A stretch of 64,000 nt of DNA from positions 186,001-250,000 of the forward strand of contig JAVKOQ020000026.1 of assembly GCA_031835245.2 (NCBI GenBank), given 5' to 3'. Every line of letters begins with the position of its first letter. The stretch's first letter is position 1. The DNA comes from Balamuthia mandrillaris (taxonomy: Eukaryota). Below, piece after piece: positions 20,201-64,000 of this stretch. Made by a program: the position numbers and the translations under genes. Below the pieces are notes generated by a model, which was given only the letters and a program-made list of their open reading frames with translations, was not told where the DNA came from and searched no databases.

Positions 20201-20653
20201 AGCAGTCTTTTTGGATACATGAAACACCTCCGGCGTAAATCCAAACCGACTCCAAATGCTATAATATGCGGAGTGGGCTTCTATTGCTGTAGAAATATCT
20301 CCGTAGAGCACCAACAGACCTGGCCAAAAGGCTTGTAGGCTATCTACAGTTTCATCAACCACACCACCAGTGTCCATCGACACATCAAAGTACCAACTGC
20401 CTTGTTTGGAATATGTCATGATGGCGTTGTATGACTTCAAAGATGTGAAGAGACGTAAGCAGAAGAAGGATGAAGGAAGCAGGAGGAGAAGGACAATATA
20501 ATTACAGTGTTGAACATTTCAAAGTGTTCATCAGCGCCATATAGATAATAGGCTTTGAGCAAATATTCGTAGAAGGAATCAAAACCAGCACCAATTCCAC
20601 TCTTCCGTATTAGCCAAATTCCCTGTTTGGTGCTTCTGGTCAACTTACTTGTT

Positions 20654-20703
<50 letters not shown>

Positions 20704-21960
20704 CTTCTGAGTTACGTTGTGTTTTTTAACGTACGCTATTAACGTCTATAAGATTTCCCAATAACTGCGTTTTGGGTGACCGCCTTGCCCAAAGTTCTTG
20801 TATCGCTCGCTTTGTTACCTCCTCAAATACAGGAACCCCTGATAGCCGGCTCAGAGCCCCAAACTCCACCAGCAGCGTGCCCGCTCCCGCCAGGCATGTC
20901 TGTGTTGTCACTCCTGTTGGAACTCCTTTTCTATGTTTCGTTTCAAGAAAATAAAAGATATTGTTGATGGTAACCTTGAAGAAATGCAAATAGCATGAAG
21001 GAAGAGAGATACACACCTAAGATTTATGAGAGAATAAGGGATGCCAGTGGGAGTGTCGAAAGCAGGCAACAGCCTGTACCCCAAATCCAAAGCCATTTCC
21101 AGCAACACACCTCTGCCGGAACTTCCTCGATCGTAGTGGAAGCCCTGTTCTGGTAAAAGAAACCGTTCTGCCAGAATGTGAGAAGAGAGCAATCCTCCTA
21201 GCATGCGAATGGTAGTTTCAAACAGGGACACCGTCACATCTGTGTCGAATGTGATGGTAGAAGCTGCCAAGTTTACCGCCTTTTCGAACTCGCCCAAATC
21301 TCCAAATACCTGCGTTTTGTATGCAACATAAGGAAAGGGAGCCAATGAATAACAGGTCGCAACGCACCACTAGAGTATCCATGCTATCCACCAGCGTGAG
21401 AGAAAAACTGCGAAACAAGAGAAGGAAAGGAAAAAAGCAAGTAGAAGCAGAAGACGAAGAAGGAAGAAAGAAGAAACAAGAAAGAAAAAAAAAGAAGACA
21501 GAAGATAAGACAGTGTAGAAAAAAGCAATGAATGGAGGAGACAGTACTTGCCGAGTGCGTCATCCAGACTTCCACGTCCATGTTCTTGGCGATACCTGCC
21601 TGTACAAGAAAGAGGTTGTAACTCATCTGCGGGGAAAGCATGCCGTAGGTAGCCGTTCCACGCATGATAAAACATCTCCTTCACTTCCTCCCTGCATTCG
21701 ATTACAAAAACCTTTGAATACCACTGGCAATAGGAGCGAAGAACGAAGAGCCATCACAGTGTTTCACACAAAAAAAAAAGTAGCAACACAATCACAAAAA
21801 AAAAAAAAACGAACCTGAGCCTAGCTTTCTCCCGAGTGGTAAAGTAAGGAGTGCAGTAGCTATGTTGTGGAATGGTCACCGCAGCCAACACCAGCAACAA
21901 GACCAAAGACCTAGAGAAGCGTAGCAAAGGCATGCTGTGCTGGCCTCTCCCTCCGTGCAT
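17251..21960 (-). CDS. EDEM3: ER alpha-1,2-mannosidase-like protein (GH47 plus PA domain), EDEM3-like
   Basis: Signal peptide, [93 protein letters not shown]-domain RGNCTFVEK. Confidence 0.9.
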
Positions 21961-22155
21961 CGTGGGCCAGCCTTGTTTTTTTTCTGTTGCATGTCGACAT
22001 AAACAGTAGTTCCGCTGATGAATGATCGTGTCGACGTGAAACGACTTTAGGCAATTAATTCCCCCTAAGGTCGACAAAAATGATGATAATCTCTTTCCTT
22101 GGCCTTTGTTGTTAGCGGAAGTGTACCCCCCCCCCCCCCTATCTTGCACTCGAAG

Positions 22156-22691
22156 ATGAGCCTACAAGTAACGGTGAAGGAAGCAAAGAACCTCCTTGCA
22201 GCGGATTCCAACGGTACTCCTTCCTTCTTTGGTTGTGGATTTAAGCAGGTTGTCACACCAACCCTTCCCCTCAAACGATACCAAACCTCATAGGTTTCTC
22301 CGACCCGTTCGTTATTCTCTCCCTTCCAGGGCAGACACACAAAACCAAGGTCATCAAAAAGAGTGTACGTATGCTACTTTCTCTATCACTGACAAACAAT
22401 AACTCCTGATAACCCCAACAGCTAAACCCGGTCTATAACGAGAGCTTTACATTCTCCTTAAGTGAGCCTCACCACGACTACAAGAACCAAACTCTAAAAG
22501 TGGAAGTGCGAGACAAGGACTTTTTTGGCTCTGACGCGCTTGGTCAAGTGGACATCCCCTTGATTAGCCTGCCAGTGGATGCTGCGCAAGAGGAGGAGAA
22601 GTGGTACACCTTGAACAGGACCAGCACCGGCCAGATATTGATCGGGTTAAAGTTGGAAAGACCTCTTGCTGGTGTTCATTTCACGCCGTAA
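22156..22691 (+). CDS. Single C2-domain protein, copy 1 (3 exons)
   Basis: LQVTVKEAKNLLAADSNG-SDPFV..KTKVIKK-LNPVYNESFTF..VEVRDKDFFGSDALG. Confidence 0.85.
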
Positions 22692-26480: not shown

Positions 26481-27395
26481 ATGACCATGTTTCTTCTCTT
26501 TTTCTTCTGCCTCGTCACACTGCTCTTCTTCCCAACAGCAACTGCTGCAGCGTTGTTGGTACTACTTTTTTTTCCGTTCATCACCATTCTCTTCTCTTCG
26601 TCGTTCTCTGCTTCGTTCTCTTCGCTTCATCGTTCTCTTCTCTTCTCTTCTCTTCATAGTTCTCTTTATCGTCGTTCTATTCATCATTCTCTTCGTTCTC
26701 TGCTTCGTTCTCCTCTCTTTGTCGTTCTCCTCTCTTTGTCGTTCTCTTCATCGTTCTCTTCTCTTCATCGTTTTCTTGTCTTCCCTCTACTACTCTTTGA
26801 TTCTAATCACACTTTTTAAACATAAAGGGTGAAGAAAAACAGTTGCCACAGTCTTTGGTTGTTCAACTGGACGAATGGGGAGCTGACTCTTTTCGCGTTC
26901 GCATCACACCCAATGCTCAGGTGGAAGATCCTCCCATTCAAGCCCTGCTGCTCTCTTCTTCTTATGCTTCCTCAGCTTCTCATCGCTTTGTTGTGGTTCC
27001 GACCCAACAACAACAACAAAGCACGACCAATACCACAAACGGCAACCTGATCGCCTCGTTGGACTCTTCCACAGGCCTTCTTACCTTCGTCCGAAAGTCT
27101 GACGGTCGCGTTTTGCTTCGTACGCTTTCTCAGCATTTCTCTTCACATTGGAATGAGAAACAGCCGAAAGAGAAGAACACTTTTTCTTCTTCGTCGTCGT
27201 CTGCGTTGTTGGGTGCGGCTGTTAGCTTTGCGGCAAATGAGAAAGAGCAAGTCTATGGCCTTGGAGAGCATCGTACTGGCAGACTGCAGAACAAACCCAT
27301 TTTCATAAGCTTTCAACAGAGTCAAGTGTGTCTTTCTCTCCTTCTCGTCTCTTGCTGTTCCTCTCCCTCTCTCCCTCTCCCTCTCACTCACTCAC

Positions 27396-27434
<39 letters not shown>

Positions 27435-29601
27435 CTTTTTTGTATCAAGAACAACACTAAAACTTTAAATCTTGTTAGTTATATACACTGTCAAGAGGAG
27501 CAGATATAAGTATTCCTTTTTATCAATCTTCTCTTGGCTATGGTTTCCTTTGGAATTTGCCTTCTTTTGGGTATACCCACTTTCTTCTTGTTCTTCGTCG
27601 TTTTGCTCTGCTTTTTACTTTCATCTTCTTTCATGGTTAATCATACTGCCATGAACAAATTCAAGGTATGTAAATATAAGCGAAGAGCACACCACATGGT
27701 ACTCCAATAGCACCTTCCAGATTGACTATTGGATAACTACCACACCTGATTCTGTTGCCCCATCTTCTCCTCCCTATCCTTATCTATTGCAGCGTTACGT
27801 TCATGCTACTGGTATCAATGCTTCAGTTTTAATTATTATTTCTTTACTCTTTCTTCCCGTTATTTGACGACCAATTTCTTATCCTCTGTTTCAAAGGCCA
27901 TCCTCCTTCCTTTCCATCCTTTGCAAGTGGTTTTTGGCAAAGCAAAAACAGATACCGCAACCAGACGGAACTGCTGTCCATCGGCGCTGGATATCTCAAG
28001 CTCAACTTACCAGTTTCCGTGCTTGTCATTGACTACTACCATTGGAAGAACTACGGAGACTGGTCCTTTGACCATTCTTGTTGGCCCGATCCTTCTTATA
28101 TGACGCAGACGCTTCACGATGTCTATAACATCGATCAAGTGATGGTCTCCGTTTGGCCGGTGGTTAGCAACCAGAGTCATAACTTTGAGGTGATGAAGGA
28201 ACGTGGTTTCCTGGTGAAGAATGCCGAAGGAGAGGCATGGCCTTGTTATGCCGGTAGCAATTATGTTTACGATCCCTTTCATCCTGATGCGCGTGCTTTT
28301 GTGTTTCAGCAGCTGAAGAGCGGATACTACGATCATGGAATTAAGGTTACACCCTTGTTTTTTGCTCTCTGTTTGTTTGAACTTATATGAGAAAATAGGT
28401 TTATTGGTTGGATGCAGATGAGCCAGAACGAAAACTGCCGGATCAAAGTGGCGAGTATTACTACCACATGGGACGTGACTTGCAAATAGGGATGGCCTTC
28501 CCACGAGTCCACCAGCAAATGGTGCATGATGGCTTGACCTCCTTACATGAAACAGATTTCATCATGTTGAGTAGAAGTGCATGGGCAGGTACCCGTCTTT
28601 TTCGTTTTTTTTTTTCTTATGCGCTTTTGTATTTTCTGTTTGTCATTCCTTTCTTGCTTTTCTGGTTTTCTTTCTCCGCTCTTTCCATCCCAACAGGAAC
28701 ACAACGACTGGCAGCAGCTGTCTGGAGTGGAGACATTCCATCCACATTTGAAGAATTGAATATCCAGGTGAGAGTAGCTCAGAACATGGCAATGAGCGGC
28801 ATCTACTGGTGGACAACCGACATCGGGGGTTATGTGAATGGCAACATTAATGATCCCCTCTTTAGAGTATGTCTTGCTTTTGTTCATTTCTGTTGATTCT
28901 TTGCATACGTTTAGTACAAAGATTTGAGGAACCTAACAAATTGTTCAATGATACCAAACTGTTAGGAATTGGTCGTGCGTTGGTTCCAATTTGGAGCGTT
29001 TTGTCCGCTGTTCCGATTGCATGGCAAACGCAGTCCCATCCAAAACGTTACTTCTTGCGGGCCAACTGGAGCACCAAATGAGATATGGCATTTCGGAGAA
29101 CCTGCTCTCTCCATTATTTCTGACCTCATCCATCTTCGCGAGAAGTTACGACCTTATATCATGAAACAGGTTATATTCTTTTTGTCTTTCTGTCTTTCGG
29201 TCTTCTCTGCTTTTCTTTTTCTGATATAGTGCCAACAAACAAAAGATGAGTATAGCTTCTCTTAATGGAGCTCCTCTACTGCGACCGATGGTTTATGCGT
29301 GTGCAGAAGTGGAGTGCCAACAAGCAGAAGACCAGTTTATGTTTGGACCGGATTGGTTGGTCGCTCCTGTGATGCAGCCTTATGCGTCTTCTAAAGCAAG
29401 GAGTGTTTATCTTCCGTCTTCTGAAAATTGGGTTCATTATTTCACTGGAAAGACCTACACAGGAGGACAAACTGTCACTATGTACGACCTAACCTCTTTT
29501 TTCACTTTACCCCTGTCTCTCTTTTCCTGACCCACTTGTTTGCCAGTGAAACACCATTGCACAGCTTTCCTCTCTTTTTCCGACAACAGCGCCACAATTA
29601 A
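26481..29601 (+). CDS. Secreted GH31 glycoside hydrolase (alpha-xylosidase-like)
   Basis: Signal peptide, YGLGEH, GFWQSKNRY, VIDYYHW..GDW, WLDADEPE (nucleophile), VWSGDI, WWTTDIGG, RWFQFGAFCPLFRLHG, QFMFGPDWLVAPV. Confidence 0.92.
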
Positions 29602-29874
29602 ACTCTTTTCTTCCTTTATTCTGTTTACTTTCTCACTTTGGGTTCTTCTTAATCGGAAAGACTCGTTCTTCTTTATCTAACTACAGCCGCAAAAGGTAAC
29701 TTTTCCATTATGGTGTTTTGTTGTAAAGGAAGAAAATCATATTAAAACTTGCTCGTTAATTATTGTTAATTCAGAAAAAAGAATGAGGCAACCGTTTGCC
29801 GGTAAAAGTTGACCATGATGCCGGTTATTTTAACATAACCTCCGTAGAAAACAAAGAGTAAACAAACGAACACA

Positions 29875-30514
29875 ATGTGGCGCTACTTCTCCTTCTTTAC
29901 CAGCCTTCTTCTTATCTTTACCTCATTCTCTGGTTCGTAGTGTTTTTCTTTTCTTTCTTCCTTTCGTTCTTATCGTTTTCTTCTTCGCCAGCTGCTCAAA
30001 GATGTGTTATGTTGGAAGAGTCCATGCACAACCAAATCGATCCCAAGTGTTTGCCTCTTCTTCTGGACCAAAACCAACCTATCTACATACCCGCCAACCA
30101 AACGTTGGCCGATCTCACCGAACAAGCCTCTGCCTCTACTATTTTTTTAGGAGTTTGGGTGCCGCCTGCCTGTCGTGACGCTGCTCTTTTGTTGGCGTGT
30201 CATTACTCGTATAAGATCTGTAACGGCTCTTCCGGTGTGTATTCTTTCTTCTTCCTTGCTTCTTCTTTCTCCCTTATGTGTGCGTAACTTACTGTTTCTT
30301 AACTTGCCTTCATCAGCGGTTTCTCCGTGTTTGTCTCTTTGTAACTCTATGTCAGCTGAGTGCACGGAGTACTTCGAGTCCGTTGGAAGGGCCAACATGA
30401 TCCCACCCTGCACTACTTTCTTATTTCCAAATTCTTCCTGTAACCCAGGAAGCACTGCTAGTAAGCTCTCATTCTTGTCTTTATTTCCTAATCTAACTTC
30501 TTCTCTCGCTCTCG

Positions 30515-30547
<33 letters not shown>

Positions 30548-32535
30548 CTTATTGCTTCTCGTTTCTTTCCCCAAAAAAACAGAGGTGGGTTACAGCCAAG
30601 CAGACTGTCCCTATCCAACCGTCTACAATCCAGATATTACCGACGATATCTGTGCCCTTCCCTGTCCAGGCACCATCTACACTGAGGAACAATGGGACAC
30701 CCTTTATTCTGTCATGACTCTCTTTGGTGCCATATCTTTGGTCGCCTCCACCTTCTACGTCGTGACGAGCTTCTTGAATCCTGATACGAGACGATTTCCT
30801 GTCAACGTTTTGAACTTCTTAACTCTTTCGACCATTCCGGTTTCATTGGGACTTGTCTTTGGAGTATTTGCTGGAGGATCAGAGAACATAATTTGTTCAG
30901 ACAAGGGGGAGTATCAAGGAGTCGGGCGAGGAGATGCTGGTGGTCTTGCTTGCGTTCTTCAAGGTGCGTCTATTGATGCTAAATGTTTTACTTTTGTCTT
31001 GTCTATGTTTTATTTTCTTTTTTCTAAAGTGAGATTTTATATAGGAATTTTGTTGGTATGCGGAGGATTATGTGTTGCTTGTTGGTGGACCATCGCAGCT
31101 TTCAACGTACCTGTTCTTTTCCTTCTTGTTTCTTTTATTCTTCTGCTTCTTCTGCTTCCTCCTCATCCTCCTCTTCCTGTTCTTTTTCTTCTATGTTTGT
31201 CCTTCTTACTAAATCGCTTTTCTTCAGTTGGTCATGTTGATTGTTGTTCAAGTATCTCGTGATAAGCTCCACAAATTTGAAAAATGGTAACTTGTTCACC
31301 TCATTTTTCTATCGTTCTTTTGCTGCTTATTCTATTCTGCAGTCCTAACGTTCATTAAAAAACAGGTATCACATCATAGGGTGGACACTACCAGTACTGC
31401 TTACCATCATTCCTTTGGCCGCAAAGAAGATACAAGCCTCTCCTACCGTTTCGTGGTGCTTCATTTATGATGAAGATACTGATTGGTGGATTTATGGCAA
31501 CTTTTATATTTTATGTATGCACTTTTTTCTCTTGTATGTAGTGTTTTTATTTCCTATTTTAACGAGCCACGTTGTTCCCTCCCCTTCTCTCTCTCTCTCA
31601 TTAGTTATTGGAAGCTGGTTGTTTGGGTCGCTGCTTATCTTGGGTGTGGTCATTACCATTCTTCGGGTAACTTTTTGTTGCATTTATATTCTTCATTTCA
31701 GGTGTTAACAAACATCGCCATCAATAACAGAGAAGTTATCAGTTTGACAAGAAGGGCAACTTGCCTTTTAGGGTGGTCATCCGTTTGTTGGTGATGATGT
31801 GTCTCTTTTGGGGTCTGACCGCCTTTCAGATTGCCTATCGCTTCTACGGCTCTGCTATCAAAGACGACGTTACCGAAGCTCTTGAAGAACAGGTTTGCTA
31901 TTATCTTTTCCTCCTCTTTCTTTTGCTTAACTTTTCTTGTAAAATCAATATTGACTTGAACAATACAGGTCGTATGCAGCGCGAGCACAGGAACGGAATG
32001 TGAGTTAAAGGAGAAACCCAACTTTGGGTTTCTCCTTTGGACTGTATTAGTGATGACCAACTTGGGAGCATTCGCCTTTCTGACGATCGGTTGCACCAAA
32101 ACCACGTTTAACTTTTGGCGAGGACTCATAAAGGATTTGTGGAGGGCGAAAGGCCGCGGCAATAAGATTCAGGTTTGGAGAAATTACACCATCACGAGAG
32201 ATCGTGCTCGTTCACGCTCCGCGTTTAACAGCAATGAGACAAGTACGTTCTTTGTTGTTGTTGTTGTTGTTGCTTTTTTTTACATTCTCTTTCTTGTAGT
32301 TTCTTACAACACTTTGAATTTGCTGCTGTCTCTTTTAAAAGGGTCTCGCACACCAAGCGGATATAACATGGGGGACAGCCCAAGGCAGCACCTGGAGCAA
32401 ATGGGGCTGACGGAGATGTACGCGGGACCGGACTCGGCTGCACCTCTATCCCAGCCGGAGGATGAGGTGGACAGCTCCATCGAGGAAGGAAAGAACTCGC
32501 ATTCCCCTTCGGACTCTGCCAGCTCAGAGGATTGA
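29875..32535 (+). CDS. Frizzled/Smoothened-like 7TM receptor with cysteine-rich domain (Dictyostelium Fsl-like)
   Basis: Signal peptide, CRD-like C..AALLLAC.YSY..C..PC.SLC......C, CPYP..CALPCP, TM1 then RRFP, YHIIGWTLP, WCFI, seven hydrophobic segments. Confidence 0.8.
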
Positions 32536-37658: not shown

Positions 37659-38836
37659 TTAATAATTGACATACTTTTCTCTGACCCTACCACTCAAAAA
37701 CTTATCCACCTCGGTGAAGTTCTTGCACGCTCCCGAGCCCTTCAATCCTCCTCGTTCCTCCGCGCAGGGCACCTCCTTGCGCGTTTGGGCAAGCGCCTGC
37801 AACCGCTGCTGCATCCTCTCTCGCCCAAAGCGCTCCACCCGCTGGTCCAACTTGGCCATCGCCGCCTCATACAACCGAATGTCCAACTCCAAGAACTCGC
37901 GCAGCTTCTCCTTCACATCCGACGCCAAGCTCTCCACCTTGGGTCTTCCTTGCACCACCCCATAGTTGCTGTAGTTCCTGACCACCTCCGGGCTGATCAC
38001 TCCATCCGCTTCCAACAGTATGAGGGACTCGTCGAAGCGCTCCGCTACCACCACCATCTCGAAGGTGTCCAACACCGCCAGTAGGCGCTGGAATTGCCGC
38101 TCCGTGTGTAACGTGCGAAGGGTTCTCATGCCGCGATGTCCCTTGCGAACAAAGGCCTCAATGTCGTTGCCCCACTTGACGTTGGCCACGCGCAACTGCT
38201 TGTAGTAGAAGCGAGACATGAAGCGGTCCAGCGGGTCCCGTTGGGAGAAGAGCCAGTAGCACAGCTCCTTCTTGAACTTCTTCTCAGCGGTGCGGTTGAA
38301 CTCCAACATGGGCAAGAGCTTGTCGATCTCCACGTGGCCGCTGAGGAAGTCAGCCTTCACGCGCAAGCCACCCTTCAGCTCCTGAGAGAAGGTCTTGTTC
38401 CAAAGCTTGGTCGTGCCCTCCAAGATATGGTTCAGAGTGGTTCCTCCTGTCTTTTGCAGATGCCAGAAGAGCAAACAACGGTCCAAAGGCTTTGGCGGGG
38501 GTTCGTATGGCTGTTGCGGAAGATCTTTGTAACCTAAAGAGTGCCGCCGACGCCATGAAGCCAAGGAAGCAGAAGCGTTTGAGGAGAAGGCGGTGACGGG
38601 AGAGGAGGATAGGGAGAACGTCGACGAAGAGGTGAGAGAAGAAGGGAAGAGGAGGTAAGACAGCAGCCACAGGAAGTAGACCGAGAAGGCCGCGATAAAG
38701 CTTTGGTGAGGAGAGAGTAGAATTGTTGAAAAACAACAATGGTTTAGAGCACCGGTCGAAAGAAAAAAAAATGCTGGTTAACGCACCAAAAGTAGCCACA
38801 GTTCCTGAGCATGGCGGGAGAATACTCTTTTCCCAT
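37659..38836 (-). CDS. Type II membrane Golgi-type sulfotransferase (Gal-3-O-ST/Sulfotransfer_2-like), copy 1
   Basis: 5'-PSB FWHLQKTGGTTL, 3'-PB RDPLDRFMSRFYY, ERFDESLILL, LDIRLY. A short 5' exon plus one intron gives the TM anchor CFIAAFSVYFLWLLSYLLF. Confidence 0.85.
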
Positions 38837-39138
38837 GGTCGTGTAAGCGTCGTTCAAAAAACGAAAATAAAAATAATAACAAAACGACGGTCGTTTTGAA
38901 GCAACAACACAAACAAACGTGGGTAACAGACAAGGCCACTTCACCAAAAAAATCCTTAGCAGCACTGCCTGCCACCTTGGGTGTGTTTGAATTCTCTGCT
39001 TTAGTTACCTGGCTTGGAGCAAACAAAAGGCCATTATGTCAACAACAACAGACAACCACTATAATGCATTCCAGTAAATATGGGTATGTAATTAATTAAT
39101 TACCGGGATCGTTGGCCCACAACCGGTAGTCTCGTGCA

Positions 39139-40380
39139 CTAAAGGTTGGCATACTTTTCTTTGGCTCTACCGCTCAAAAACTTATCCACCTCGGTGAAGT
39201 TCTTGCACGCTCCCGAGCCCTTCAATCCTCCTCGTTCCTCAGAGCAACGTGCCGTGTGCACCGCTGCAAGCGCCTGCAACCGCTGCTGCATCCTCTCTCG
39301 CCCAAAGCGCTCCACCCGCTGGTCCAACTTGGCCATCGCCGCCTCATACAACCGAATGTCCAACTCCAAGAACTCGCGCAGCTTCTCCTTCACATCCGAC
39401 GCCAAGCTCTCCACCTTGGGTCTTCCTTGCACCACCCCATAGTTGCTGTAGTTCCTGACCACCTCCGGGCTGATCACTCCATCTTCCATTAACAGTATGA
39501 GACATTCGTCGAAGCGCTCCGCTACCACCACCATCTCGAAGGTGTCCAACACTGCCATCAGCCGCTGGAGTTCCTGCTCCGTGTTCAACGTGCGAATTGT
39601 GGCCATTCCAGGGTGTTCCTTGCGAACAAAGGCCTCAATGTCGTTGCCCCAATTTAAGTGGGGCAACCGCAGCTGCTTGTAGTAGAAGCGAGACATGAAG
39701 CGGTCCAGAGGTTCTCGTTGGGAGAAGAACCAGTAGCATAGCTCGTGATTGTGTGCCGTGCGGTTGCGTTTGCGCGTTTTCTTGGAGTTGGCCTTGAGAT
39801 TGTTCTCGGTGGCAGCTTTGGTTCTACGCTCGCTCTCCAACCATTCCAACATAACACTCAATCGAAAGTGACCACTGATGTAGTCGGCATCCCTCACGTC
39901 ACGCTGGTGGGGCAGAAAGCTCTTGTTCCAAAGCTTGGCTGTGTCCTTCAGGATGTGGTTTAGTGTGGTTCCACCAGTCTTTTCAATATGCCAGAACCTC
40001 ACACATCTATCTAAATGCTCCACCTCTTCATGGGAGGTCGAGATAGCTTTGGAAAGAGAATCGAAGGAAGAAGGAGAATAGGAAGGAGGAGAAAAAGGAG
40101 GAAAAGAAGGAGGAGAAAGAGAAGGAGAAGGAGAGGAAGGAGCGGGAGGTGGAGGCGAGCGATTCAGAAAGGGGGCAGGAGTTGAAGTTAGGGTTGGGCC
40201 TCTCTGGTCAAAGTAACTCTTGTCCCAGCTAGATTTGGATGTATTAGAAGTAGAGGGGAGCGAAGTTGTTGGTTTGAAATAGTCGTCGTGAGAGATGTAC
40301 TGCAACAATAACCCAAGAAGATAAGCCAATGGGACAGCGAGGACTTGCTGTTGGTATTTTGCGTCGACGTGGTAAACCAT
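39139..40380 (-). CDS. Type II membrane Golgi-type sulfotransferase, copy 2, intronless
   Basis: TM anchor, Pro/Ser stem, FWHIEKTGGTTL, REPLDRFMSRFYY. C-terminal part nearly identical to copy 1. Confidence 0.87.
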   Translation of the reverse strand: MVYHVDAKYQQQVLAVPLAYLLGLLLQYISHDDYFKPTTSLPSTSNTSKSSWDKSYFDQRGPTLTSTPAPFLNRSPPPPAPSSPSPSLSPPSFPPFSPPSYSPSSFDSLSKAISTSHEEVEHLDRCVRFWHIEKTGGTTLNHILKDTAKLWNKSFLPHQRDVRDADYISGHFRLSVMLEWLESERRTKAATENNLKANSKKTRKRNRTAHNHELCYWFFSQREPLDRFMSRFYYKQLRLPHLNWGNDIEAFVRKEHPGMATIRTLNTEQELQRLMAVLDTFEMVVVAERFDECLILLMEDGVISPEVVRNYSNYGVVQGRPKVESLASDVKEKLREFLELDIRLYEAAMAKLDQRVERFGRERMQQRLQALAAVHTARCSEERGGLKGSGACKNFTEVDKFLSGRAKEKYANL

Positions 40381-40410
40381 TGTTTTGTTTTTATGTTTAT
40401 TGTTTCCGTT

Positions 40411-41212
40411 TTATGTGTCCGTTCTATGAAAGGCAGCTCGCTCAAACGGAGAAGTACCAGAGGCATGATAATACAGCGGAGACGTTGCTTCCATGGGAGG
40501 AGCACTGGCGTCCTGGTTAAAATACTGGTGAGGAGAATGAAGAAACCCTTGGGGTTGTGGTTGTTGCTGGTGTTGCGTCATTCTTGGGGCATCACCTCCG
40601 CCTCCGCCTTCCAAACCACCGTCCACAAACGAAAAAGACTTGGGCGGCAAGTCGCTGTCATGAAGATAGGCCTGCTCCTTCGGTCCCGCGCAGCACCTTC
40701 TCAGCTCCTTGAACAACAACCGGCTCAGTAGCAAGGCACTCGCCCCACACATCCCCATCAACATCCAAAATACTCTATCCCAACCGTCGTGCGTGCTGGA
40801 CAGCCAACCCGTGATAAAAGGCCCAACGGCCGCTCCCATGCTCCCTGTTCCATCGATGATAGCCGTAACGGTGGCCAAGGCCTTAGCATCCCCTTTCAAG
40901 GAGCTGTGCGTGCCGAGGTCAGCCGAGACAGCTGTCGTGATGAGGGAGTACGGCCCGTTGACAAAGACACCAGCCACCAGCATGAGCACAATGTTGAGGG
41001 CATAGCTATGGTCCCCAAAGGCGCGATAGCAGTAGAGAGCTGGCACGGAGATGTACATCATCACGGCAGAGGTGGTGGCCTGTGCGGGGAGCCAGTCAGA
41101 GATGAGGCCGGCGATGATGCCGCCAATGATGCCGCCCACATCGAAGAGAGTGGATAGGTTGCCCGATTCCGAGGTGCTCAGTTTGTCATCCCCAATCTCT
41201 GTTGATATGAAG

Positions 41213-41244
<32 letters not shown>

Positions 41245-42571
41245 TTAAAAGAAAGCAAACAAAAAAAAAAGAAAAGAGAAAAGAACAAGTACCAGTATGG
41301 TTAAGGTAAAAAGGCAACCAGTAAAGAAAGGTATAGCTGACCAACTTGCAAAAGAACAACGCCATAGCAAACTCAGCCACACCAGGTATCATCCACGCTC
41401 TGAAAAAGTTAATGCCTTGCTTCTTCTGTTTAGCGGCAGACAACAAGATAGTGTCCTCTCTTCCTTCACCATCTCCTGCGCCGCTTCCTTTGATCTTCTT
41501 ATTGGTAGGGTTGATGGAGCCGGAAGTAACAGCACCATAGCCAACCCCATAAGAACCAACGTCAGAGTCTGTCTCTGTTTCTGTGATCACATTTTCCTCT
41601 TCCTCTTCATCTCCTGAATGATGGTTTGGTAGCAAGACCACTGCATTCGGCGAGTCGAGTCCTACGTCCTCCGGAGTTACCACTAAGAAGAGGAAGATAG
41701 CGACACCAAGAGCGCCAATAATGCCGCCTGGGATGATGAAGGAGTAACCCCAACCGATGGCCAAGGCAGCAGAGCATATGGCCGAGCCCAGGATGTTGCC
41801 CACCGAGGTGTGTGCATTCCAGACGCCCATGATGAAGCCTCTCTTGCCCTTGCCGAACCAGTAACCCACCACGCTGACCACCGCGGGCCAGCCGGTGGAT
41901 TGGACGATACCGCAGAGGACTTGCACCACCACAAAGTACCAGAACATGTGCAGTTTCCAGATGTAGGCCATGCCAAAAAGCGCTGTGAATACACCGGTCA
42001 ATATCATTCCTGCACTCAGGAAGTATCTGTGGAGTAGTTTTCAAAGTTAGAAAGATGGAAAAGCGAGAGGAGAGAGGCGAGAGGAGGAGAGAGCAGAGAG
42101 CAGAGAGCAGAGAGCAGAGAGCAGAGAGCAGAGAGTAGAGAGCAGAGAGAGACTTTGGGATAGAATAAATAGAAAAGAGGAAAGGCGAGGACAAGGACAA
42201 AACCTGAGGTTCAGGCGGTCACCAAGATGTCCACTGAAAAACATGCCAACAGCGTAAGAGAAAAGAAAAGCGGTATCAAGGGAACCAAGTAAGCCCTCTC
42301 CTTTTGAAGTATTAAAGGGAGCCCAACCGTCATAGGGCTTCTCGTGATCGGTGCTGTTGTTGTGCGTGTGAAGAGTGGACTTGACGATGCTCGGTGCCTT
42401 GCGAGCCAAGTGATAGGACATGTAACAGAGAAAAGTGAGGAGGAGAACAGAGGCCTGCATCAAGATCCGCTTCCGCGACGTGCTCAACGAGGGACAACAG
42501 CCACAACATGCTCGCAGGATAATCACACCGAGAGGCACGTTCTTGGTATGCTTTTTCTTTCTGACTTCCAT
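40411..42571 (-). CDS. SLC37A: MFS sugar-phosphate/glycerol-3-phosphate exchanger (SLC37A1/2-like)
   Basis: [87 protein letters not shown]. Confidence 0.93.
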
Positions 42572-43014
42572 CTGTTTTTTCTTCCTTCCACCAAGTGTTC
42601 TCTGTCTGCTCTCCACTGTTTTTGTAACCTTTAATATGAACCATTTTCGTTAGTGACACGTATGACAATAATAACAAAAAACCCCTGTAAGAGTACCTTT
42701 TGTTTTTCGCGTTCTCTCAGCGCACGTCCATACACCGGTCACTCGCGCCGCAGCACACAACCAAAGACAACCTATAACAACAACGTTGTTTTTGTTTAGC
42801 GAGGGAGAGGAGGAGCCAAAGAAAAAGAGGAGCTGGTCTGCTTCTTCTCCGCCAGAGTTGTTCCGGTTGAGTTTCTGCTTGAGGAGTTTAATTAAAGAAA
42901 TTTTGGCGATCAAATTACCAAATTAGTAAGATACACGTCACTTTATATCTTTAATTAGGTATATAAATCCCCAGCTTACGTGTGTTACAGTTTTAGTTTT
43001 ATTTTGTTTTGGCT

Positions 43015-44178
43015 CTATGGATGCTCTTCCCCCCCAAAGGTGGCGTTGTGCCTCCGCCAAAACAAGTCACGGGCAAACTCCCAAAGCTCGATGTCCAGGT
43101 GGTTGATCTCCTTGATCATCTCCACCACCTCCTCCGGCACCTTTTGCTGCGACACAAACTCCGGGAAAGCCTCGAAGCAAAGCTGCGGGAACTTGTGCCG
43201 CAGCATCTGCCACAACTCCGTTGGCGCTTCGTAAATGCCCACCACATGAAGCTCCTCCAGCAGGACCCGCTTGGCATCCTCTAAAATAAGTCTCTCGTGC
43301 TCCGGGTTGCCCAACTGCAGGCCGCCCTCACAAAGGGAGGGCACCAGTGTGCTCAACATGATGGTCTGGCGGTTGCGCCCGGCGTTGGTCTCATGTGAAG
43401 CCCAGCTCTTAAAATCCTCCAGGTTGCCCTGAAAGGGCGGGTACCGTCCTCTTACGTACTTTCGAGGGTCAGGCGGACGGGTGTCGATGACCTTGCCATT
43501 ACAGTCGGTCGGCCAGAAGACATGCCACAGCTGAAAGGTGCCTTGCGTCTCGAGGTATTCATGCCAGAAGCGCTCCACAGGATGCCGCACCTGAGTGATC
43601 CAAAGGGGATTCCGGTTGCCAAACTTGGTCGACAGGCATTGGTTCCACCGTGTGTAGCTTGGGTGCACACCACAACGCCACTTGGTGGTGGAGCGGCTGA
43701 GAAGCCAAGTGGAGCCCTGGAAGAAGCTAGGTGAGAGACAAGAGCCTTTCCCTTCCTGTGCACCGCTTTCGAGCACCGAGTTGAACGTTTTGCCGCCGCT
43801 CTTTTGGAGGTGAACGTGCACCAGGAGGTCCTTTGGGCTAAGGGTTATGGGCTCGACTTTGTCGCTGATACTTGCTTCCTCTTCTTCATCCTCGTCTTCT
43901 TGGTATTTGTAGTGGTATTGAGGCCCTTCGTATTGGTATGGCTGATCTTCTCCGTCGTGTTGCTCGTTGTTGTTGTTCCCTTGTGTCACAGGCGGCGCGT
44001 CAGAGACGCCGCTCTTCTGCCCCCGCGTCGTCGTTTGTTCTTGGGTGCTTGTCACAAAAACACGCTCCACGTTCTCAGTGCACCGCGAGCCGAGCTGCAG
44101 CCACAATGAAAAGCAGAGAAAAAGAAGGACAGCAATCAAAAGGGACTTGGGGTCCATTCGAACCCCTGCCACATGCAT
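43015..44178 (-). CDS. HS6ST: Heparan-sulfate 6-O-sulfotransferase-like protein, intronless
   Basis: TM anchor, VHVHLQKSGGKTF, TWLLSRSTTKWRCGVH, ITQVRHPVERF, NRQTIML, LEDAKRVL, INHLDIELWEFARDLF. These match HS6ST motif order as I recall it. Confidence 0.8.
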   Translation of the reverse strand: MHVAGVRMDPKSLLIAVLLFLCFSLWLQLGSRCTENVERVFVTSTQEQTTTRGQKSGVSDAPPVTQGNNNNEQHDGEDQPYQYEGPQYHYKYQEDEDEEEEASISDKVEPITLSPKDLLVHVHLQKSGGKTFNSVLESGAQEGKGSCLSPSFFQGSTWLLSRSTTKWRCGVHPSYTRWNQCLSTKFGNRNPLWITQVRHPVERFWHEYLETQGTFQLWHVFWPTDCNGKVIDTRPPDPRKYVRGRYPPFQGNLEDFKSWASHETNAGRNRQTIMLSTLVPSLCEGGLQLGNPEHERLILEDAKRVLLEELHVVGIYEAPTELWQMLRHKFPQLCFEAFPEFVSQQKVPEEVVEMIKEINHLDIELWEFARDLFWRRHNATFGGEEHP

Positions 44179-44345
44179 TTCTTCCTTCCTTCGCGCCTCT
44201 GCTCTCTCTTTCTTTCTTGTCACAACAATTATTTGTGGTTGCGTTTTAATTTGGGATGCATTACCCTCGTTTAGAAAGACCTACGAGGTTGGTAGTCGGC
44301 CTGACTTTGCTTGAATAACTCAAAGAAGGCGAGCATGATATTAAT

Positions 44346-45329
44346 ATGAGGGTTTTACATTTCGTGGTTCCCTTTGGTCTTGGGATTTGGTTCTGTCTGA
44401 TTATGACCTCGTTATGGGGCCAGAATTGTTCGCCCAATGCCACTCCTGAGCAAGCAAATTGTGAAGTTCAACACTATTCACCGCTAGCGTACTCCAGCGG
44501 TATCTGTCTCCGTACCAACGACAACAACAAATACAAGGACGAGAGCCAGTCCCCAGTCCAGACCGCAGCTTGCCTGAGTTGTGCTGAACGATTAACCATA
44601 GGAAAAGAGCTGGGATACTACTTTGACGACCTCCGTGGATATCCCTCGAAACCGAGCAGCCGCGCCGTCAATGTCTTTGGACTAGGACTATCCAAGACTG
44701 GTACGACCTCCCTGACCGCCGCTCTGAAAGAGCTGGGCATTCGTTGCTGGCACACACCAATGGAGACAACAGAAGACCTCCTTTTCATGACCACCGCAGA
44801 CAAAGTGTCTCCTCTTAGCGTGGATATCGTGAGACGCTGGGACTCATCCCGTGCGGTCACCGACACCCCAGTTCCTTACTACTTTGAGGAACTGCTGCTC
44901 ATGTATCCCAACGCCAAGTTCATCCTGACAGTGCGAGATGCCGCTGCGTGGTGGCGGTCCTGGAAGGCCCACATGGAGAGGCACCCTCAACCGATTCAAT
45001 TCTCAAACGTCACAAGAGTGCTCCACTACGGAAGTCGGTGGCCCAACGAGTACTCATCCATTAAGGCTTTCCTGCGGCACAACAGGTTGGTGCAGACCAT
45101 CATTCCTCCAGAGCAGCTGTTGGTGATGGATGTGGCAAAGGGAGACGGATACAACAAGCTGTGTGCGTTCTTGAGCATAGCGGAGCACAAGTGCCCTCCG
45201 GACAGCGAGTTCCCGGTAACACACACAAGAGCACAAGCCGAGGTGAGGCGCCAGAGCGTGGCCGCACAGGTTTCCGAACAGTCCCGCAAACGACGGGCAG
45301 GAGACCCCTGGTTCCTCAAACGGCGATAG
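44346..45329 (+). CDS. P-loop sulfotransferase family protein (Sulfotransfer_4-like) with N-terminal hydrophobic anchor, intronless
   Basis: VFGLGLSKTGTTSLTAAL, DTP, YPNAKFILTVRD..WW.S, HN..V...IPPEQLL, G.LC.FL..FP. Confidence 0.87.
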   Translation: MRVLHFVVPFGLGIWFCLIMTSLWGQNCSPNATPEQANCEVQHYSPLAYSSGICLRTNDNNKYKDESQSPVQTAACLSCAERLTIGKELGYYFDDLRGYPSKPSSRAVNVFGLGLSKTGTTSLTAALKELGIRCWHTPMETTEDLLFMTTADKVSPLSVDIVRRWDSSRAVTDTPVPYYFEELLLMYPNAKFILTVRDAAAWWRSWKAHMERHPQPIQFSNVTRVLHYGSRWPNEYSSIKAFLRHNRLVQTIIPPEQLLVMDVAKGDGYNKLCAFLSIAEHKCPPDSEFPVTHTRAQAEVRRQSVAAQVSEQSRKRRAGDPWFLKRR

Positions 45330-45926: not shown

Positions 45927-47378
45927 ATGCTTCATACAGGAGGAAGAAGACGACGTCAGAGAATGCGTTCGCAGCAACCATTGGCGCAGATACCGCAGCC
46001 GAACCTGCTTGAGGAGGAAGCGGAAGAGGAAGGCGACGAGACGCAGTCCTCGGAAGGCGAGGAACAGGCGGAGGAGCTGCTCTTTGGCCCTCGTCTCCAC
46101 ATCCTCGAGCAGCGCTCCCTGGCCAAAGAGGAACAGACCATCGAGGATGGCACAGCGACAACGGAAGAAGGAGCCCCCGCAACGAGGACCAAGGTGGTTC
46201 ACAACGTAGTGAAGAACACCCCATTCGTGGTTCGTGTTGGCCTTCAAAGCTGCGAGGAGGCGGCCCCTCTCGCTTTCAACTTCAACACCACGCACTCGTT
46301 GGAGGTGGCGCTCTGCTTCGACTGCGAGGAGCTCAAAGAGGTCCCTTTCCTGAACCAAAAGCCGGTCGACTACAGGGTTCGCAGCGTCACCAACGCAAAC
46401 AAGGAGGTGGAGCTCAACGTGGACGTGAAGATCAGGGTGCTGTCGAGCCACTGCGAGCACATGATGTTTCGTCTGCGCTTTCGCTTGGTGGACGTTGTGA
46501 CGGGAGAGGCGGTCCTCCTCATGAGTGAAGGACGAAACGGAGGCCATTGCGAAGTCTTCTCGGAGGCCATTCGAGTGGTGAGCAAACCGGAACAGATCAA
46601 GACGGCGGTGCAACAGCAACAACAACAAGGACAGCAACAGGGAAAGAATGCCACCACCGCCACAAAGAAGAAGAGCACCAAACGAACCGTCAACGACAGA
46701 ATAGAGGAGATAGTGATGAGAATGGAGAGCGCACAGCGAAGACAGACATGCTTGTTGGAGCAACTCTTTGCAGAGAAACAACAACGGACGAAGGCTGAAC
46801 AAGACAACGAGAACGAAGTTGAGAGCTCTTCTTCTCGCTACCACAAACGACGGAAGCTATCTCCTTCTGAATATCACCATGAAGTTGTAAAGACCGAAGC
46901 TGTGGACAATGAAGAAGAACAACAGCGTCAACTGGAACAAGCGATGGACAACCTGTTGGATGTCTACCAGCGACTCGACTCGGAGAGCAAGCCACGCGCT
47001 CTCCGGCGGTTGCTTCGCAAGACATCGGCACGACGGACCTCCTCGCTATGCGAGATGGTCTCCCTGTTGGACTCTCAGGGCTTGGCCATGCCTCACAACG
47101 AAAGTCTTTTGCTTTCTTCGGCTAACAGCGAACAACAACAACAACAACAACAACAACAGAAAGAAGAAGAGAACAACTTCCTTCCTCCTCCTTCGTTGGA
47201 AGCATCATCTGCAACAACAGCGATGCCTATGACTTCGTTCTTTTGGTTGGAGGAAAACTTGTCTGCGAATGGAGGAATACGAAACAAAGAAGAACTACTG
47301 CAACGGAGTTGTTGGGATGAGGTGATTCTTGGAGGAGAGTTTGACTTGTTTCAAGAGTGCTTCTCAACAGTGCTCTGA
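45927..47378 (+). CDS. cudA: CudA-family transcription factor, intronless
   Basis: VHNVVKNTPF, KEVPFLNQKPVDY, VKIRVLSSHCEHMMFRLR, SEAIRVVSKPEQ followed by a basic stretch and a coiled coil. Confidence 0.75.
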   Translation: MLHTGGRRRRQRMRSQQPLAQIPQPNLLEEEAEEEGDETQSSEGEEQAEELLFGPRLHILEQRSLAKEEQTIEDGTATTEEGAPATRTKVVHNVVKNTPFVVRVGLQSCEEAAPLAFNFNTTHSLEVALCFDCEELKEVPFLNQKPVDYRVRSVTNANKEVELNVDVKIRVLSSHCEHMMFRLRFRLVDVVTGEAVLLMSEGRNGGHCEVFSEAIRVVSKPEQIKTAVQQQQQQGQQQGKNATTATKKKSTKRTVNDRIEEIVMRMESAQRRQTCLLEQLFAEKQQRTKAEQDNENEVESSSSRYHKRRKLSPSEYHHEVVKTEAVDNEEEQQRQLEQAMDNLLDVYQRLDSESKPRALRRLLRKTSARRTSSLCEMVSLLDSQGLAMPHNESLLLSSANSEQQQQQQQQQKEEENNFLPPPSLEASSATTAMPMTSFFWLEENLSANGGIRNKEELLQRSCWDEVILGGEFDLFQECFSTVL

Positions 47379-61890: not shown

Positions 61891-62412
61891 GTTTTTTGCT
61901 CTATGTACTAGTTTATTTTTTTTGTTGTTGTTGTTCAGTTAGAAAGGGATAGCGTCGTCGGCCAAAGCCCAAGCAAGAGCAGCTGTCCGACACGGTGTGC
62001 GAATAGCAAAAGAGATTCGTGAACCATTACCTACCTTCCGGCCCCGCGGCCTTTCGTTGTGCGCTGCTGTGTTCCTTTGGGTCTTTTTCAGGGTAAACAC
62101 TATCGGGACGACGTGGAAATTATGTGATCGACGGCTCCGATCATTGATCTCAGCACATTATTTTTGATTAATTGATTGAAAAGAAATGGCAAGGGAATGT
62201 AAGCCAGCCAGCAACGTCCCTGCTCTTCCCTGCTCCCTTTGGCGGGGGAAAATAGGTGTCGACAAGGACTGATGTCAAACCAACCCATTGCGCGTTGGTC
62301 AATTAATCAAGAACAGTGCCTAAGTTTGCTTAGGGGGAGCGCCTCGTGCCAAAACTCTTGCTCTTTGACCCTCTTGGGTGTCTTTTGCTCAAGAGCGTGC
62401 ACGCAGTCAGAC

Positions 62413-64000
62413 ATGGGTAGGGCTGGTTTGTGTCGCTTAGGAGGCCTGTCGGCGGCCCTGCTTCTGTTGTTTGTCTTGGTTGCCTCCGCCGCCGCAACGG
62501 ACGGGTTTCTGCTGGGGAGACCCAAGGCCTCTCCCGCCGAGCAAGTGAAAGCTGTGCAGGGCCTCGTCTCGCGACTTTTGGGTCCGCAGTACCTCCCCTC
62601 TTTTCAGCTTACCGTCAGCTCCTCGCCCAACTTGACCACCGACTACTTCCAACTCTCCTCGAAGCAGTGAGTTTTCTCTCTCTCTCTCTCTCTTCTCGCT
62701 CTACCTCTTTCTAACATTATGTAAGGATCGATTCGAAAACGGTCATCTTCATTGAAGGATCGTCTGGAGTCTCTTTGGCATCGGGCTTGTACCACTACTT
62801 GAAACACTATTGCAATGCCATCGTGACGTGGGGCGAAGATGGAACTGGGAATCAACTCTCTCTTCCTTCGCCCTTGCCTCCTGTTGTTGTCGACGCGAAG
62901 AAAGGCGAGGGGAGTGAAGAAGAAGAAGAAGAAGAAGGGGAAGACCAGGAGGTGGTTGTCGCCACAGTGCCGTATCGTTATTACATGAACGTGTGTACGG
63001 TCAGTTACTCATCGGCGTGGTGGCAGTGGGACCGATGGGAGAAGGAGATTGACTGGATGGCATTGCATGGTATCAACCTGCCACTTTCATTCACGGGACA
63101 AGAGTACATATGGTCACTGGTAGCTATGATTGCTTCGACTTGCCCAATCTTCTCGTTCTTCTTGTTCTGTGACTTTTGGAAGTTATTGTGTCTGACCGTG
63201 TGCTTTTAGGTTTACACAAAACTTGGTTTGACAGAGGAGGAGGTTGCAGAGTATTTAGGCGGACCCGCCTTTCTAGCTTGGACTCGGATGGGTAATGTTC
63301 AAGAGTGGGGAGGGCCTCTTACTTCAACATGGCAGTTTGCTCAAGTACTATTCTCGTCTTCTTTGAAGAATCCATACTTCTGATTACTAACGGTTGCTTT
63401 CGTTGTGAAGGCACAATTGCAAAAGAAAATCCTTCAACGACAACGCCAGTTCGGAATGATTCCTGTTTTGCCTGGATTTGCTGGTCTCTCTCTCTCTCTC
63501 TCTCTCTCCGTGGTTATCTCTTTCTTCTATTTTTTTCTCACTCGTTCTCTTCTCTTCTTTCTTGTTCTTGTTCTTCTTCGTTCTTCTTTCTTCGTTCTTC
63601 TTCGTTCTTTAGTTGTCTGTGCTAGTTCTATTCTCCATTCTTTCCATCTTCTAAAGTCCGTCTCATTAAAACAGGACATGTTCCAAAAGCCATTCAACGA
63701 ATCTTTCCAAAAGCCAATCTTACAGAAGGTTACTGGAATAGCTTTACTTCCCCTTACAACCCGACTTATCTGTTGGATCCATTGGACCCAGCATTCCTTC
63801 AAATTGGCAGCACGTTCATTAAACTGCAAACCAGTTACTTTGGCACAGACCACATCTACAACGCCGATACCTTCAACGAAATGACTCCCGTCTCAAGCGA
63901 TGCCTCTTACCTCGCTGCCACCAGCAAAGCTGTCTTGCAAGGAATGAAAGTAGCAGATCCGTCCGCTAAGTGGTTGATGCAAGGATGGCTCTTTTTGAGC
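62413..64000 (+). CDS. NAGLU: Alpha-N-acetylglucosaminidase (GH89), 5' part
   Basis: Signal peptide, RYYMNVCTVSYSSAWW.W.RWEKEIDWMALHGIN, GPAFLAW.RMGN, GMIPVLPGFAG, DHIYNADTFNEM, WLMQGWLF. Confidence 0.95.

What the first reader, a model, noticed from the sequence alone, without database searches (positions are those of the whole stretch)
37659..45329. Sulfation island: four sulfotransferases of three types around an SLC37 sugar-phosphate transporter
Seen: two Gal-3-O-ST-like paralogs, SLC37, an HS6ST-like gene and a Sulfotransfer_4-like gene lie contiguously in 7.7 kb. All four sulfotransferases have N-terminal membrane anchors and are intronless or nearly so, unlike their neighbours. The HS6ST-like and Sulfotransfer_4-like genes are head-to-head with only about 167 bp between start codons. 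Non-paralogous enzymes that share PAPS chemistry are not explained by simple tandem duplication. Inference: a eukaryotic biosynthetic cluster for a sulfated glycan or glycolipid (surface coat or cyst wall).
Basis: partly seen in the sequence, partly recalled or inferred. Interest (0 to 1): 0.72.

Follow-up and report, generated by a model that had tools for sequence, protein, structure and literature searches.

The report
Amoeba sulfotransferase neighbourhood with HS6ST relative
The amoeba Balamuthia mandrillaris keeps four sulfate-transfer genes from three different families side by side, one of them a relative of an enzyme family listed as animal-only, but they are likely separate Golgi glycan-decorating enzymes around a probable bystander transporter rather than one self-contained biosynthetic pathway.

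Summary
This Balamuthia mandrillaris stretch has four anchored sulfotransferase genes around an SLC37 gene, and the ST3 and ST4 start codons are 167 bp apart.

The genes belong to three lineages. ST1 and ST2 are Gal3ST-like tandem copies sharing a 218-bp identical tract. ST3 is a full-length relative of heparan-sulfate 6-O-sulfotransferase (HS6ST). ST4 is one of at least 14 sequences of a dispersed Balamuthia Sulfotransfer_4 expansion.

Random placement makes three lineages in four gene units unlikely (P about 0.001 for 50 loci, 0.012 for 100). The genome-wide count was unavailable, and an old ST1/2-ST3 duplication was not rejected (p 0.16).

A biosynthetic cluster is weakly supported. No glycosyltransferase, PAPS synthase or PAPS transporter was found nearby, and SLC37 is a sugar-phosphate/phosphate exchanger. 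Raw RNA reads cover ST1, SLC37 and ST3 but barely ST2 or ST4. The head-to-head spacer differs completely in another strain.

The more surprising part is ST3. HS6ST was listed as animal-specific, yet ST3 keeps its signature Lys, His and Cys residues, while the PAPS-helix serine (64 of 64 relatives) is histidine. Verdict: a real sulfation neighbourhood, pathway unproven.

The parts
37659..38836 (-). ST1, Gal3ST-like type II sulfotransferase, 363 aa; exons 38836-38787 and 38700-37659; PSB Lys (HLQKTGGT), SGH histidine and PB Arg/Ser present
   Evidence: Pfam PF06990 E 6.9e-12; intron seen in RNA; model; NCBI KAL6074075.1/KAL6055990.1; motifs in alignment
37789..38006 (-). 218-bp tract identical to 39266-39483 in ST2; likely gene conversion between the tandem copies
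   Evidence: the copies are otherwise 71% identical in protein
39139..40380 (-). ST2, tandem paralog of ST1, 413 aa, intronless, longer Ser/Pro stem; nearly no raw RNA reads
   Evidence: Pfam PF06990 E 1.6e-8; alignment; RNA
40381..40410 (-). 30-bp spacer between the SLC37 stop and the ST2 start codon; leaves no intergenic promoter for ST2
   Evidence: reads of X6 and X8 at depth 2 over 40399-40407
40411..42571 (-). SLC37-family MFS sugar-phosphate/phosphate exchanger, 629 aa; exons 42571-42204, 42026-41293, 41198-40411; 5' UTR intron 42696-42629
   Evidence: human SLC37A2 E 3e-60 and rice Os08g0156600 E 6.6e-53; NCBIfam GlpT/UhpT-type hits below cut-off; splicing in X1; model
43015..44178 (-). 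ST3, HS6ST-family protein, 387 aa, intronless, N-terminal anchor; Lys126, His172, Arg198, Glu207, Asn269-Arg270 conserved
   Evidence: PDB 5t03 E 2.1e-17; model pLDDT 85, TM 0.74-0.76 to 5t03/5t05; X1 contig covers 42976-44186 unspliced
43561..43563 (-). ST3 codon 206, His where the family has the PB-helix Ser
   Evidence: Ser in 64 of 64 aligned relatives and 142 of 149 hits by motif, none with His; His in both Balamuthia alleles P0001 and P0002
44179..44345 (.). 167-bp divergent spacer between ST3 and ST4; length and sequence differ in another strain
   Evidence: joints 44186-44344 with 255-256 other letters in X4 and X5
44346..45329 (+). ST4, Sulfotransfer_4 (PF17784) protein with N-terminal anchor, 327 aa, intronless; member of a dispersed Balamuthia expansion
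   Evidence: Pfam E 6.3e-36; homologs; tree; PDB 9kf1 E 1.8e-20

Best explanation
Four sulfotransferase genes of three lineages sit together in Balamuthia mandrillaris and likely act as separately controlled Golgi tailoring enzymes that would add sulfate from PAPS to secreted or surface glycans built by genes elsewhere, with SLC37 likely a bystander. Shown: ST1/ST2 are tandem copies sharing an identical tract; ST3 is an HS6ST-family protein without close paralogs; ST4 is one copy of a dispersed Sulfotransfer_4 expansion; ST1, SLC37 and ST3 are transcribed. Inferred: type II Golgi topology, glycan acceptors, gene conversion as the cause of the identical tract, a silent or conditional ST2 with no promoter space of its own, arrival of ST4 as a dispersed duplicate next to ST3's promoter, and altered or reduced activity of ST3 because of His206. 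The neighbourhood probably grew by local duplication plus paralog insertion, with at most weak selection for linkage.
For: No glycosyltransferase, PAPS synthase, SLC35 transporter or sulfatase among 97 ORFs of 75 aa or more at 27-64 kb or 25 further window ORFs; the flanks carry a proteasome-type AAA ATPase, F-box, RRM and Tam41 genes. SLC37 matches glucose-6-phosphate exchanger SLC37A2, a family described at the ER and lysosomes (PMC6929180 passages; listing). Raw reads summed over X6-X8 in read-equivalents: ST1 58, SLC37 36, ST3 34, ST4 2.4, ST2 about 2 with about 0.5 in its unique part. The ST4 family has 14 Balamuthia sequences in one clade (SH-aLRT 99) at 7 or more loci, with two other consecutive-accession pairs; 11 of 14 have an N-terminal hydrophobic stretch of 1.8 or more, against 4 of 110 non-Balamuthia hits. 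The spacer is replaced in another strain. Upstream regions share no excess 7- or 8-mers (p 0.33-1.0). Sulfated N-glycans are known in Dictyostelium species, so ordinary acceptors exist in Amoebozoa (PMC11795075 passages).
Against: Random placement of three independent loci in four gene units has P 0.001 (50 loci), 0.012 (100), 0.036 (150) among 16,000 genes, which points to some non-random cause. ST1/2 and ST3 are each nearer to a different animal family and align over only 87 columns at 18%, which argues against a local duplication. Gene order is kept on a second Balamuthia contig (consecutive accessions KAL6055986-90) and in the X4/X5 strain. RNA depth is low (3-5% of each run read, one study, conditions unknown). 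ST4's second allele differs at 82 of 904 nt, so the 90% filter may have dropped ST4 reads, and an X1 contig does cover ST4. ST2 keeps its frame in X4 (9 letters deleted, 7 of 16 listed changes synonymous).
Confidence: 0.55

Rival explanations
1. A co-regulated tailoring cluster: ST1/2, ST3 and ST4 sulfate different positions of one surface or cyst-wall glycan, selection keeps them linked, ST2 and ST4 are stage-specific, and SLC37 exports lumenal phosphate released from the PAP by-product.
For: Low chance of three lineages in four units unless there are about 170 or more loci. All four are anchored and keep the PSB Lys. ST3-ST4 are head-to-head. Order is kept between haplotypes and strains. A eukaryotic precedent exists: the brown-algal ST plus FK-GFPP syntenic region (PMC11468063 passages). 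SLC37 proteins are proposed to move phosphate out of the ER (PMC6929180 passage).
Against: No backbone or donor gene nearby; uneven RNA depth; spacer not conserved; no shared upstream words; 0 of 80 HS6ST-family metagenome loci had an SLC37, ST1-like or ST4-like neighbour, although only 24 were 5 kb or longer and none is an identified amoeba.
Confidence: 0.27
2. Mostly chance. ST1/2 and ST3 descend from one very old local duplication and ST4 landed next to them at random, or the genome holds so many sulfotransferases that the grouping is expected in a scan of this size.
For: p-AU 0.161 for ST1+ST2+ST3 as one clade. With two lineages, the expected number of adjacent pairs is 0.05 (30 loci), 0.15 (50), 0.62 (100). 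About 61 comparable gene classes of 100 loci, or 503 of 50 loci, give an even chance of one such triple. Widespread family expansion is reported for the species (bioRxiv section 7).
Against: Searches found no close Balamuthia paralog of ST3 among the best 150 of 252 hits and none of ST1/2 beyond the pair. Free trees place ST3 with HS6STs (SH-aLRT 97-98), though one FastTree run drew it towards the outgroup.
Confidence: 0.13
3. A block acquired horizontally from a bacterium or giant virus, which would explain intron poverty and co-location.
For: The closest non-Balamuthia relatives of ST4 (about 32-40%) and of ST1/2 (24-27%, E 0.012 or weaker) are metagenomic, and several named ones are bacterial; 3 of 4 genes are intronless.
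Against: GC3 of 0.62-0.76 matches neighbouring genes at 0.59-0.77. ST3's named relatives and nearest Atlas clusters are eukaryotic. SLC37 has introns and sits in the middle. No viral relatives of ST4 or of the HS6ST alignment were found. ST4 is nested in a Balamuthia expansion. A single old transfer of the ST4 ancestor remains possible.
Confidence: 0.05

Closest known systems
Animal heparan-sulfate 6-O-sulfotransferase (HS6ST3, PDB 5t03/5t05/5t0a; InterPro IPR010635)
   Same: Full catalytic-domain homology with ST3 (E 2.1e-17; TM 0.74-0.76); PSB Lys, the W-x-C-G-x-H histidine, Arg198, Arg203, Glu207, Asn269-Arg270 and four invariant cysteines kept; N-terminal anchor.
   Different: Best identity to any representative is 28-37% over long matches. 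PB-helix Ser is His. Columns that are mostly Arg/Lys, Arg and Thr in the family are Leu209, Gly213 and Leu217 (that these contact heparan sulfate is recalled, not checked). Host is an amoebozoan, whereas the family is listed as core animal-specific (PMC6040629 Table 1).
Galactose-3-O-sulfotransferases (GAL3ST1-4, PF06990)
   Same: ST1/ST2 pass the Pfam cut-off; nearest Atlas clusters are GAL3ST (feature score 0.95, TM 0.79); type II layout.
   Different: The Pfam match covers only about a quarter of the profile; bacterial and haptophyte clusters score almost as well; no sequence relative at E 0.01 or better besides the pair; acceptor unknown.
Sulfotransfer_4 / S. mansoni-type sulfotransferases (PF17784; PDB 9kf1, 5tiv, 8y9p)
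   Same: Domain match with PSB and PB motifs intact.
   Different: The solved members match from their first residues, with no anchor or stem, while the Balamuthia clade has an N-terminal anchor and stem, suggesting a move into the secretory pathway.
Brown-algal ST + FK-GFPP + hydrolase microsyntenic region (PMC11468063)
   Same: A eukaryotic sulfotransferase gene grouped with unrelated genes and linked by inference to a sulfated glycan.
   Different: That region holds one ST plus a donor-sugar enzyme and is conserved across orders; this one holds several STs, no donor or backbone enzyme, and conservation is shown only within one species.
SLC37A2 / plant Os08g0156600 exchangers
   Same: Clear homolog.
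   Different: No difference found; not a PAPS transporter (SLC35B2/B3, recalled).

Membership tests
Eukaryotic biosynthetic gene cluster | Genes physically contiguous | tested here: met
   Gaps of 30-442 bp; bridged by independent contigs
Eukaryotic biosynthetic gene cluster | Three or more non-homologous enzyme types | tested here: inconclusive
   Three families of one PAPS-fold superfamily; p-AU 0.161 for ST1/2+ST3; 18% over 87 columns
Eukaryotic biosynthetic gene cluster | Backbone-forming or donor-supply enzyme in the cluster | tested here: not met
   None among 97 + 25 ORFs scanned; exons under 75 aa and low-complexity ORFs were not scanned, and 1-27 kb was only partly scanned
Eukaryotic biosynthetic gene cluster | Co-expression | tested here: inconclusive
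   ST1, SLC37 and ST3 covered, ST2 and ST4 barely, in 3 of 3 raw RNA runs at low depth; allele divergence biases ST4
Eukaryotic biosynthetic gene cluster | Synteny conserved across species | not testable with these tools
   No genome held; no amoeba ortholog with context found
HS6ST (ST3) | Full-length sequence and fold homology | tested here: met
HS6ST (ST3) | PSB-loop lysine and catalytic-type histidine | tested here: met
   Lys126 (K in 61 of 64), His172 (64 of 64); roles from PMC11625862 section 4
HS6ST (ST3) | PB-helix serine | tested here: not met
   His206; Ser in 64 of 64 and 142 of 149 by motif
HS6ST (ST3) | 6-O-sulfation of glucosamine in heparan sulfate | not testable with these tools
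   Needs an enzyme assay; nearby basic residues differ
GAL3ST (ST1/ST2) | PF06990 above cut-off with PSB Lys, His and PB Arg/Ser | tested here: met
GAL3ST (ST1/ST2) | Orthology with animal GAL3ST1-4 | tested here: inconclusive
   Atlas likeness only; no animal hit
GAL3ST (ST1/ST2) | 3-O-sulfation of galactose | not testable with these tools
   Needs an assay
Sulfotransfer_4 (ST4) | PF17784 domain with PSB and PB motifs | tested here: met
SLC37 exchanger | Homology to SLC37A2 and GlpT/UhpT across an intact MFS ORF | tested here: met
PAPS or nucleotide-sugar transporter (SLC35) | SLC35-type domain | tested here: not met
   Only MFS-type families matched above or near cut-off

The most novel reading that the evidence does not exclude
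Balamuthia carries a co-regulated, multi-family sulfation cluster, a kind I did not find described in Amoebozoa. An HS6ST-family protein with a rewired PAPS pocket, two Gal3ST-like enzymes and a membrane-anchored Sulfotransfer_4 would pattern one heparan-sulfate-like surface or cyst glycan, implying that the HS6ST family is older than animals.
Probability: 0.12. Interest if true: 0.75.

Novelty: new variant of a known kind. Interest (0 to 1): 0.45.

Why it matters
[quoted passage not shown] Full-length relatives in Balamuthia, Vermistella antarctica and the choanoflagellate Salpingoeca kvevrii suggest that the family is older or wider than that, and ST3 offers a natural variant of an otherwise invariant active-site residue. 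The locus also gives three testable candidate enzymes for glycan sulfation in an amoeba; I found no paper holding both 'Balamuthia' and 'sulfotransferase'. If co-regulation were shown, it would be a rare protist glycan-tailoring cluster and a handle on the surface coat or cyst wall of a poorly treatable pathogen.

Tried and rejected
Whole-genome count and synteny: no genome held. The supplements of PMC8569187 and PMC10471605 hold no sulfotransferase term. The supplements of the bioRxiv encystment study, which may hold stage-wise expression of these genes, are closed, so they may bear on co-expression.

Run search: no RNA holder listed. X2 and X3 had small shares and gave only short pieces; not used. 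X1 contigs leave ST2 uncovered; contigs show presence only, so this is not counted as evidence.

Complex prediction of ST3 with ST1 and ST4: no verdict.

SLC37-ST2 read-through fusion: considered because stop and start are in frame 30 bp apart. Disfavoured, as X4 shows at least 13 inserted letters there (table truncated).

NCBI's 36-nt intron removing ST3's anchor (P0001/P0002): rejected, because an X1 contig crosses it unspliced. Host contamination of ST3: rejected (37% or less identity over long matches, linked to amoeba genes, two alleles).

Plant tyrosylprotein-sulfotransferase-type identity for ST3: a Streptophyta cluster scored TM 0.61 against 0.79 for HS6ST; that this cluster is TPST is my assumption. 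Shared promoter words: none. Viral origin: none found. The fold of the neighbouring 45927-47378 protein was unusable (pLDDT 42) and had no PDB sequence hit.

PMC5331487 and PMC10753775 were not held, so HS6ST substrate-contact residues are recalled. Five look-ups of earlier findings gave nothing bearing on this locus.
Full report
Organism and anatomy. ST3's only hit among 1,956 candidates was a Balamuthia mandrillaris protein, and window proteins match NCBI Balamuthia records on a 328,395-bp contig. No whole genome was held. The five gene models are given under parts. ST1's intron and SLC37's introns are seen in spliced RNA, and both models translate without internal stops. A second Balamuthia contig carries ST1, ST3 and ST4 alleles at accessions KAL6055990, 87 and 86, mirroring KAL6074075 and 78. 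I read this as a second haplotype, not independent synteny. Contigs of runs X4 and X5 bridge most junctions in a diverged strain.

ST1/ST2. These are 71% identical over 294 residues with a 218-bp identical tract, which fits an older tandem duplication with later gene conversion (inferred). Both keep the PSB Lys, an SGH histidine and the PB Arg/Ser. They pass PF06990 on a C-terminal quarter of the profile. A review notes that this profile derives from three sequences (PMC11625862, passage). Of 7,989 candidates scored, 5 other proteins matched at E 0.012-1.7, all 24-27% identical. The Atlas places ST1 nearest GAL3ST clusters, with bacterial and haptophyte clusters close behind. 'Gal3ST-like' therefore names a fold, not an acceptor. 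ST2 starts 30 bp after the SLC37 stop. In X6-X8 its unique part has about 0.5 read-equivalents against about 58 for ST1. It keeps its frame in X4, so it is silent or conditional rather than dead (inferred).

ST3. It aligns over residues 20-285 of the 294-residue query to HS6ST3 (E 2.1e-17). An unindexed search gave 252 hits at E 0.001 or better. Of the 150 listed, only its own allele scored below 1e-30, and the best others were 33-37% identical, so no close paralog appeared. The model (pLDDT 85) matched HS6ST structures first (E about 1e-15) and HS2ST far behind. Of 10 divergent relatives looked up, 2 carried names: Salpingoeca kvevrii and the amoebozoan Vermistella antarctica (that Vermistella is an amoebozoan is recalled). 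The Vermistella protein is 29% identical over 275 residues to a canonical member. ST3's place within the family is unstable. It grouped with the Salpingoeca protein in one tree (78 of 149 hits considered), sat unresolved at the base in another, and was drawn towards the outgroup by FastTree. Richter et al. list HS6ST 1-3 among core animal-specific families and call their count method-limited (PMC6040629, section 8 read). The PB-helix serine, one of the defining sulfotransferase residues (PMC11625862, section 4 read), is Ser in 64 of 64 aligned relatives but His206 in both Balamuthia alleles. ST3 works like an HS6ST in fold, but it fails one defining feature and should not be filed as a functional HS6ST. 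Of 23 listed differences against X1, 13 are synonymous (table truncated), which suggests it is maintained.

ST4. Of 282 hits, the best 10 are Balamuthia clusters, 14 sequences in all. They form one clade at 7 or more loci, including two pairs with consecutive accessions. Most are anchored, unlike outside relatives (11 of 14 versus 4 of 110 at the same threshold). ST4's anchor is thus a family trait. The ST3-ST4 spacer is replaced by 255-256 other letters in X4 and X5.

SLC37 and flanks. The transporter is an SLC37A2-type exchanger. Papers seen place the family at the ER and lysosomes (listing; PMC6929180 passages). No sulfation or glycan-building gene turned up in the flanks.

Chance. Assuming 16,000 genes per haplotype (half of 32,503; bioRxiv 10.1101/2025.02.25.640156, section 7 read), three independent loci within four units occur with P 0.001, 0.012, 0.036 and 0.084 for 50, 100, 150 and 200 loci. 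My searches show only about 9 loci, a lower bound, as other sulfotransferase families were not searched. If ST1/2 and ST3 are one lineage, which the AU test did not reject (p 0.161, quick tree, 26 rows, no animal GAL3ST rows), the expectation rises to 0.05-0.6. Look-elsewhere across gene classes and windows weakens the three-lineage figure further.

Mechanism and verdict. Most likely (0.55) these are independent Golgi tailoring enzymes that accumulated locally, acting on glycans made elsewhere. Sulfated N-glycans are documented in Dictyostelium species (PMC11795075, passages). A co-regulated tailoring cluster remains open (0.27); its nearest precedent is the brown-algal ST plus FK-GFPP region (PMC11468063, passages).

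Literature searched. No paper held both 'Balamuthia' and 'sulfotransferase'. Searches for HS6ST in protists and for eukaryotic sulfotransferase clusters listed nothing on this locus; I saw these as listings only. PMC10471605: first part of the text and a supplement search. PMC8569187: term searches of text and supplement only. Interest 0.45: the cluster reading is unproven, and the HS6ST relative with a substituted invariant residue is the more solid surprise.

Noticed in passing
window 45927-47378 (+): Unbroken 483-aa ORF with no Pfam hit and the highest RNA depth in the laid stretch in X6 and X7; its central domain recalls amoebozoan CudA-type transcription factors (recalled; the fold model was unusable).
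   Followed up: partly
window 44095-44130 (-): The NCBI gene models of ST3 splice out 36 nt encoding the membrane anchor; an X1 contig shows no such intron, so the public annotation probably mis-predicts a soluble protein.
   Followed up: yes
window 62203-64000 (+): NAGLU (alpha-N-acetylglucosaminidase), a heparan-sulfate-degrading enzyme in animals (role recalled), 17 kb from the HS6ST-like gene; probably coincidental.
   Followed up: no
window 17390-22161 (-) and 26807-29527 (+): A GH47 mannosidase with PA domain (EDEM-like) and a GH31 glycosidase lie 8-20 kb to the left.
   Followed up: no
window 29834-32535 (+): Frizzled/Smoothened-type membrane protein (PF01534).
   Followed up: no
window 5541-5990 and 9233-9691 (+): Two closely similar ORFs without a Pfam hit, a second local duplication.
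   Followed up: no
P0131 (KAL6048324.1): Named 'Glycosyltransferase, GT2 family' by NCBI but holds only a Sulfotransfer_4 domain; a GT2-Sulfotransfer_4 fusion occurs among the hits (P0068).
   Followed up: partly
P0022, P0023, P0039 and others: Many prokaryote-like Sulfotransfer_4 relatives are fused to a PF00459 PAPS 3'-phosphatase-type domain.
   Followed up: no
window 37659-45329, alleles: ST1 is identical on the two Balamuthia contigs, and ST2's exact sequence is also recorded on two contigs, while ST3 (97%) and ST4 (89%) differ, suggesting a heterozygosity boundary inside the cluster.
   Followed up: partly
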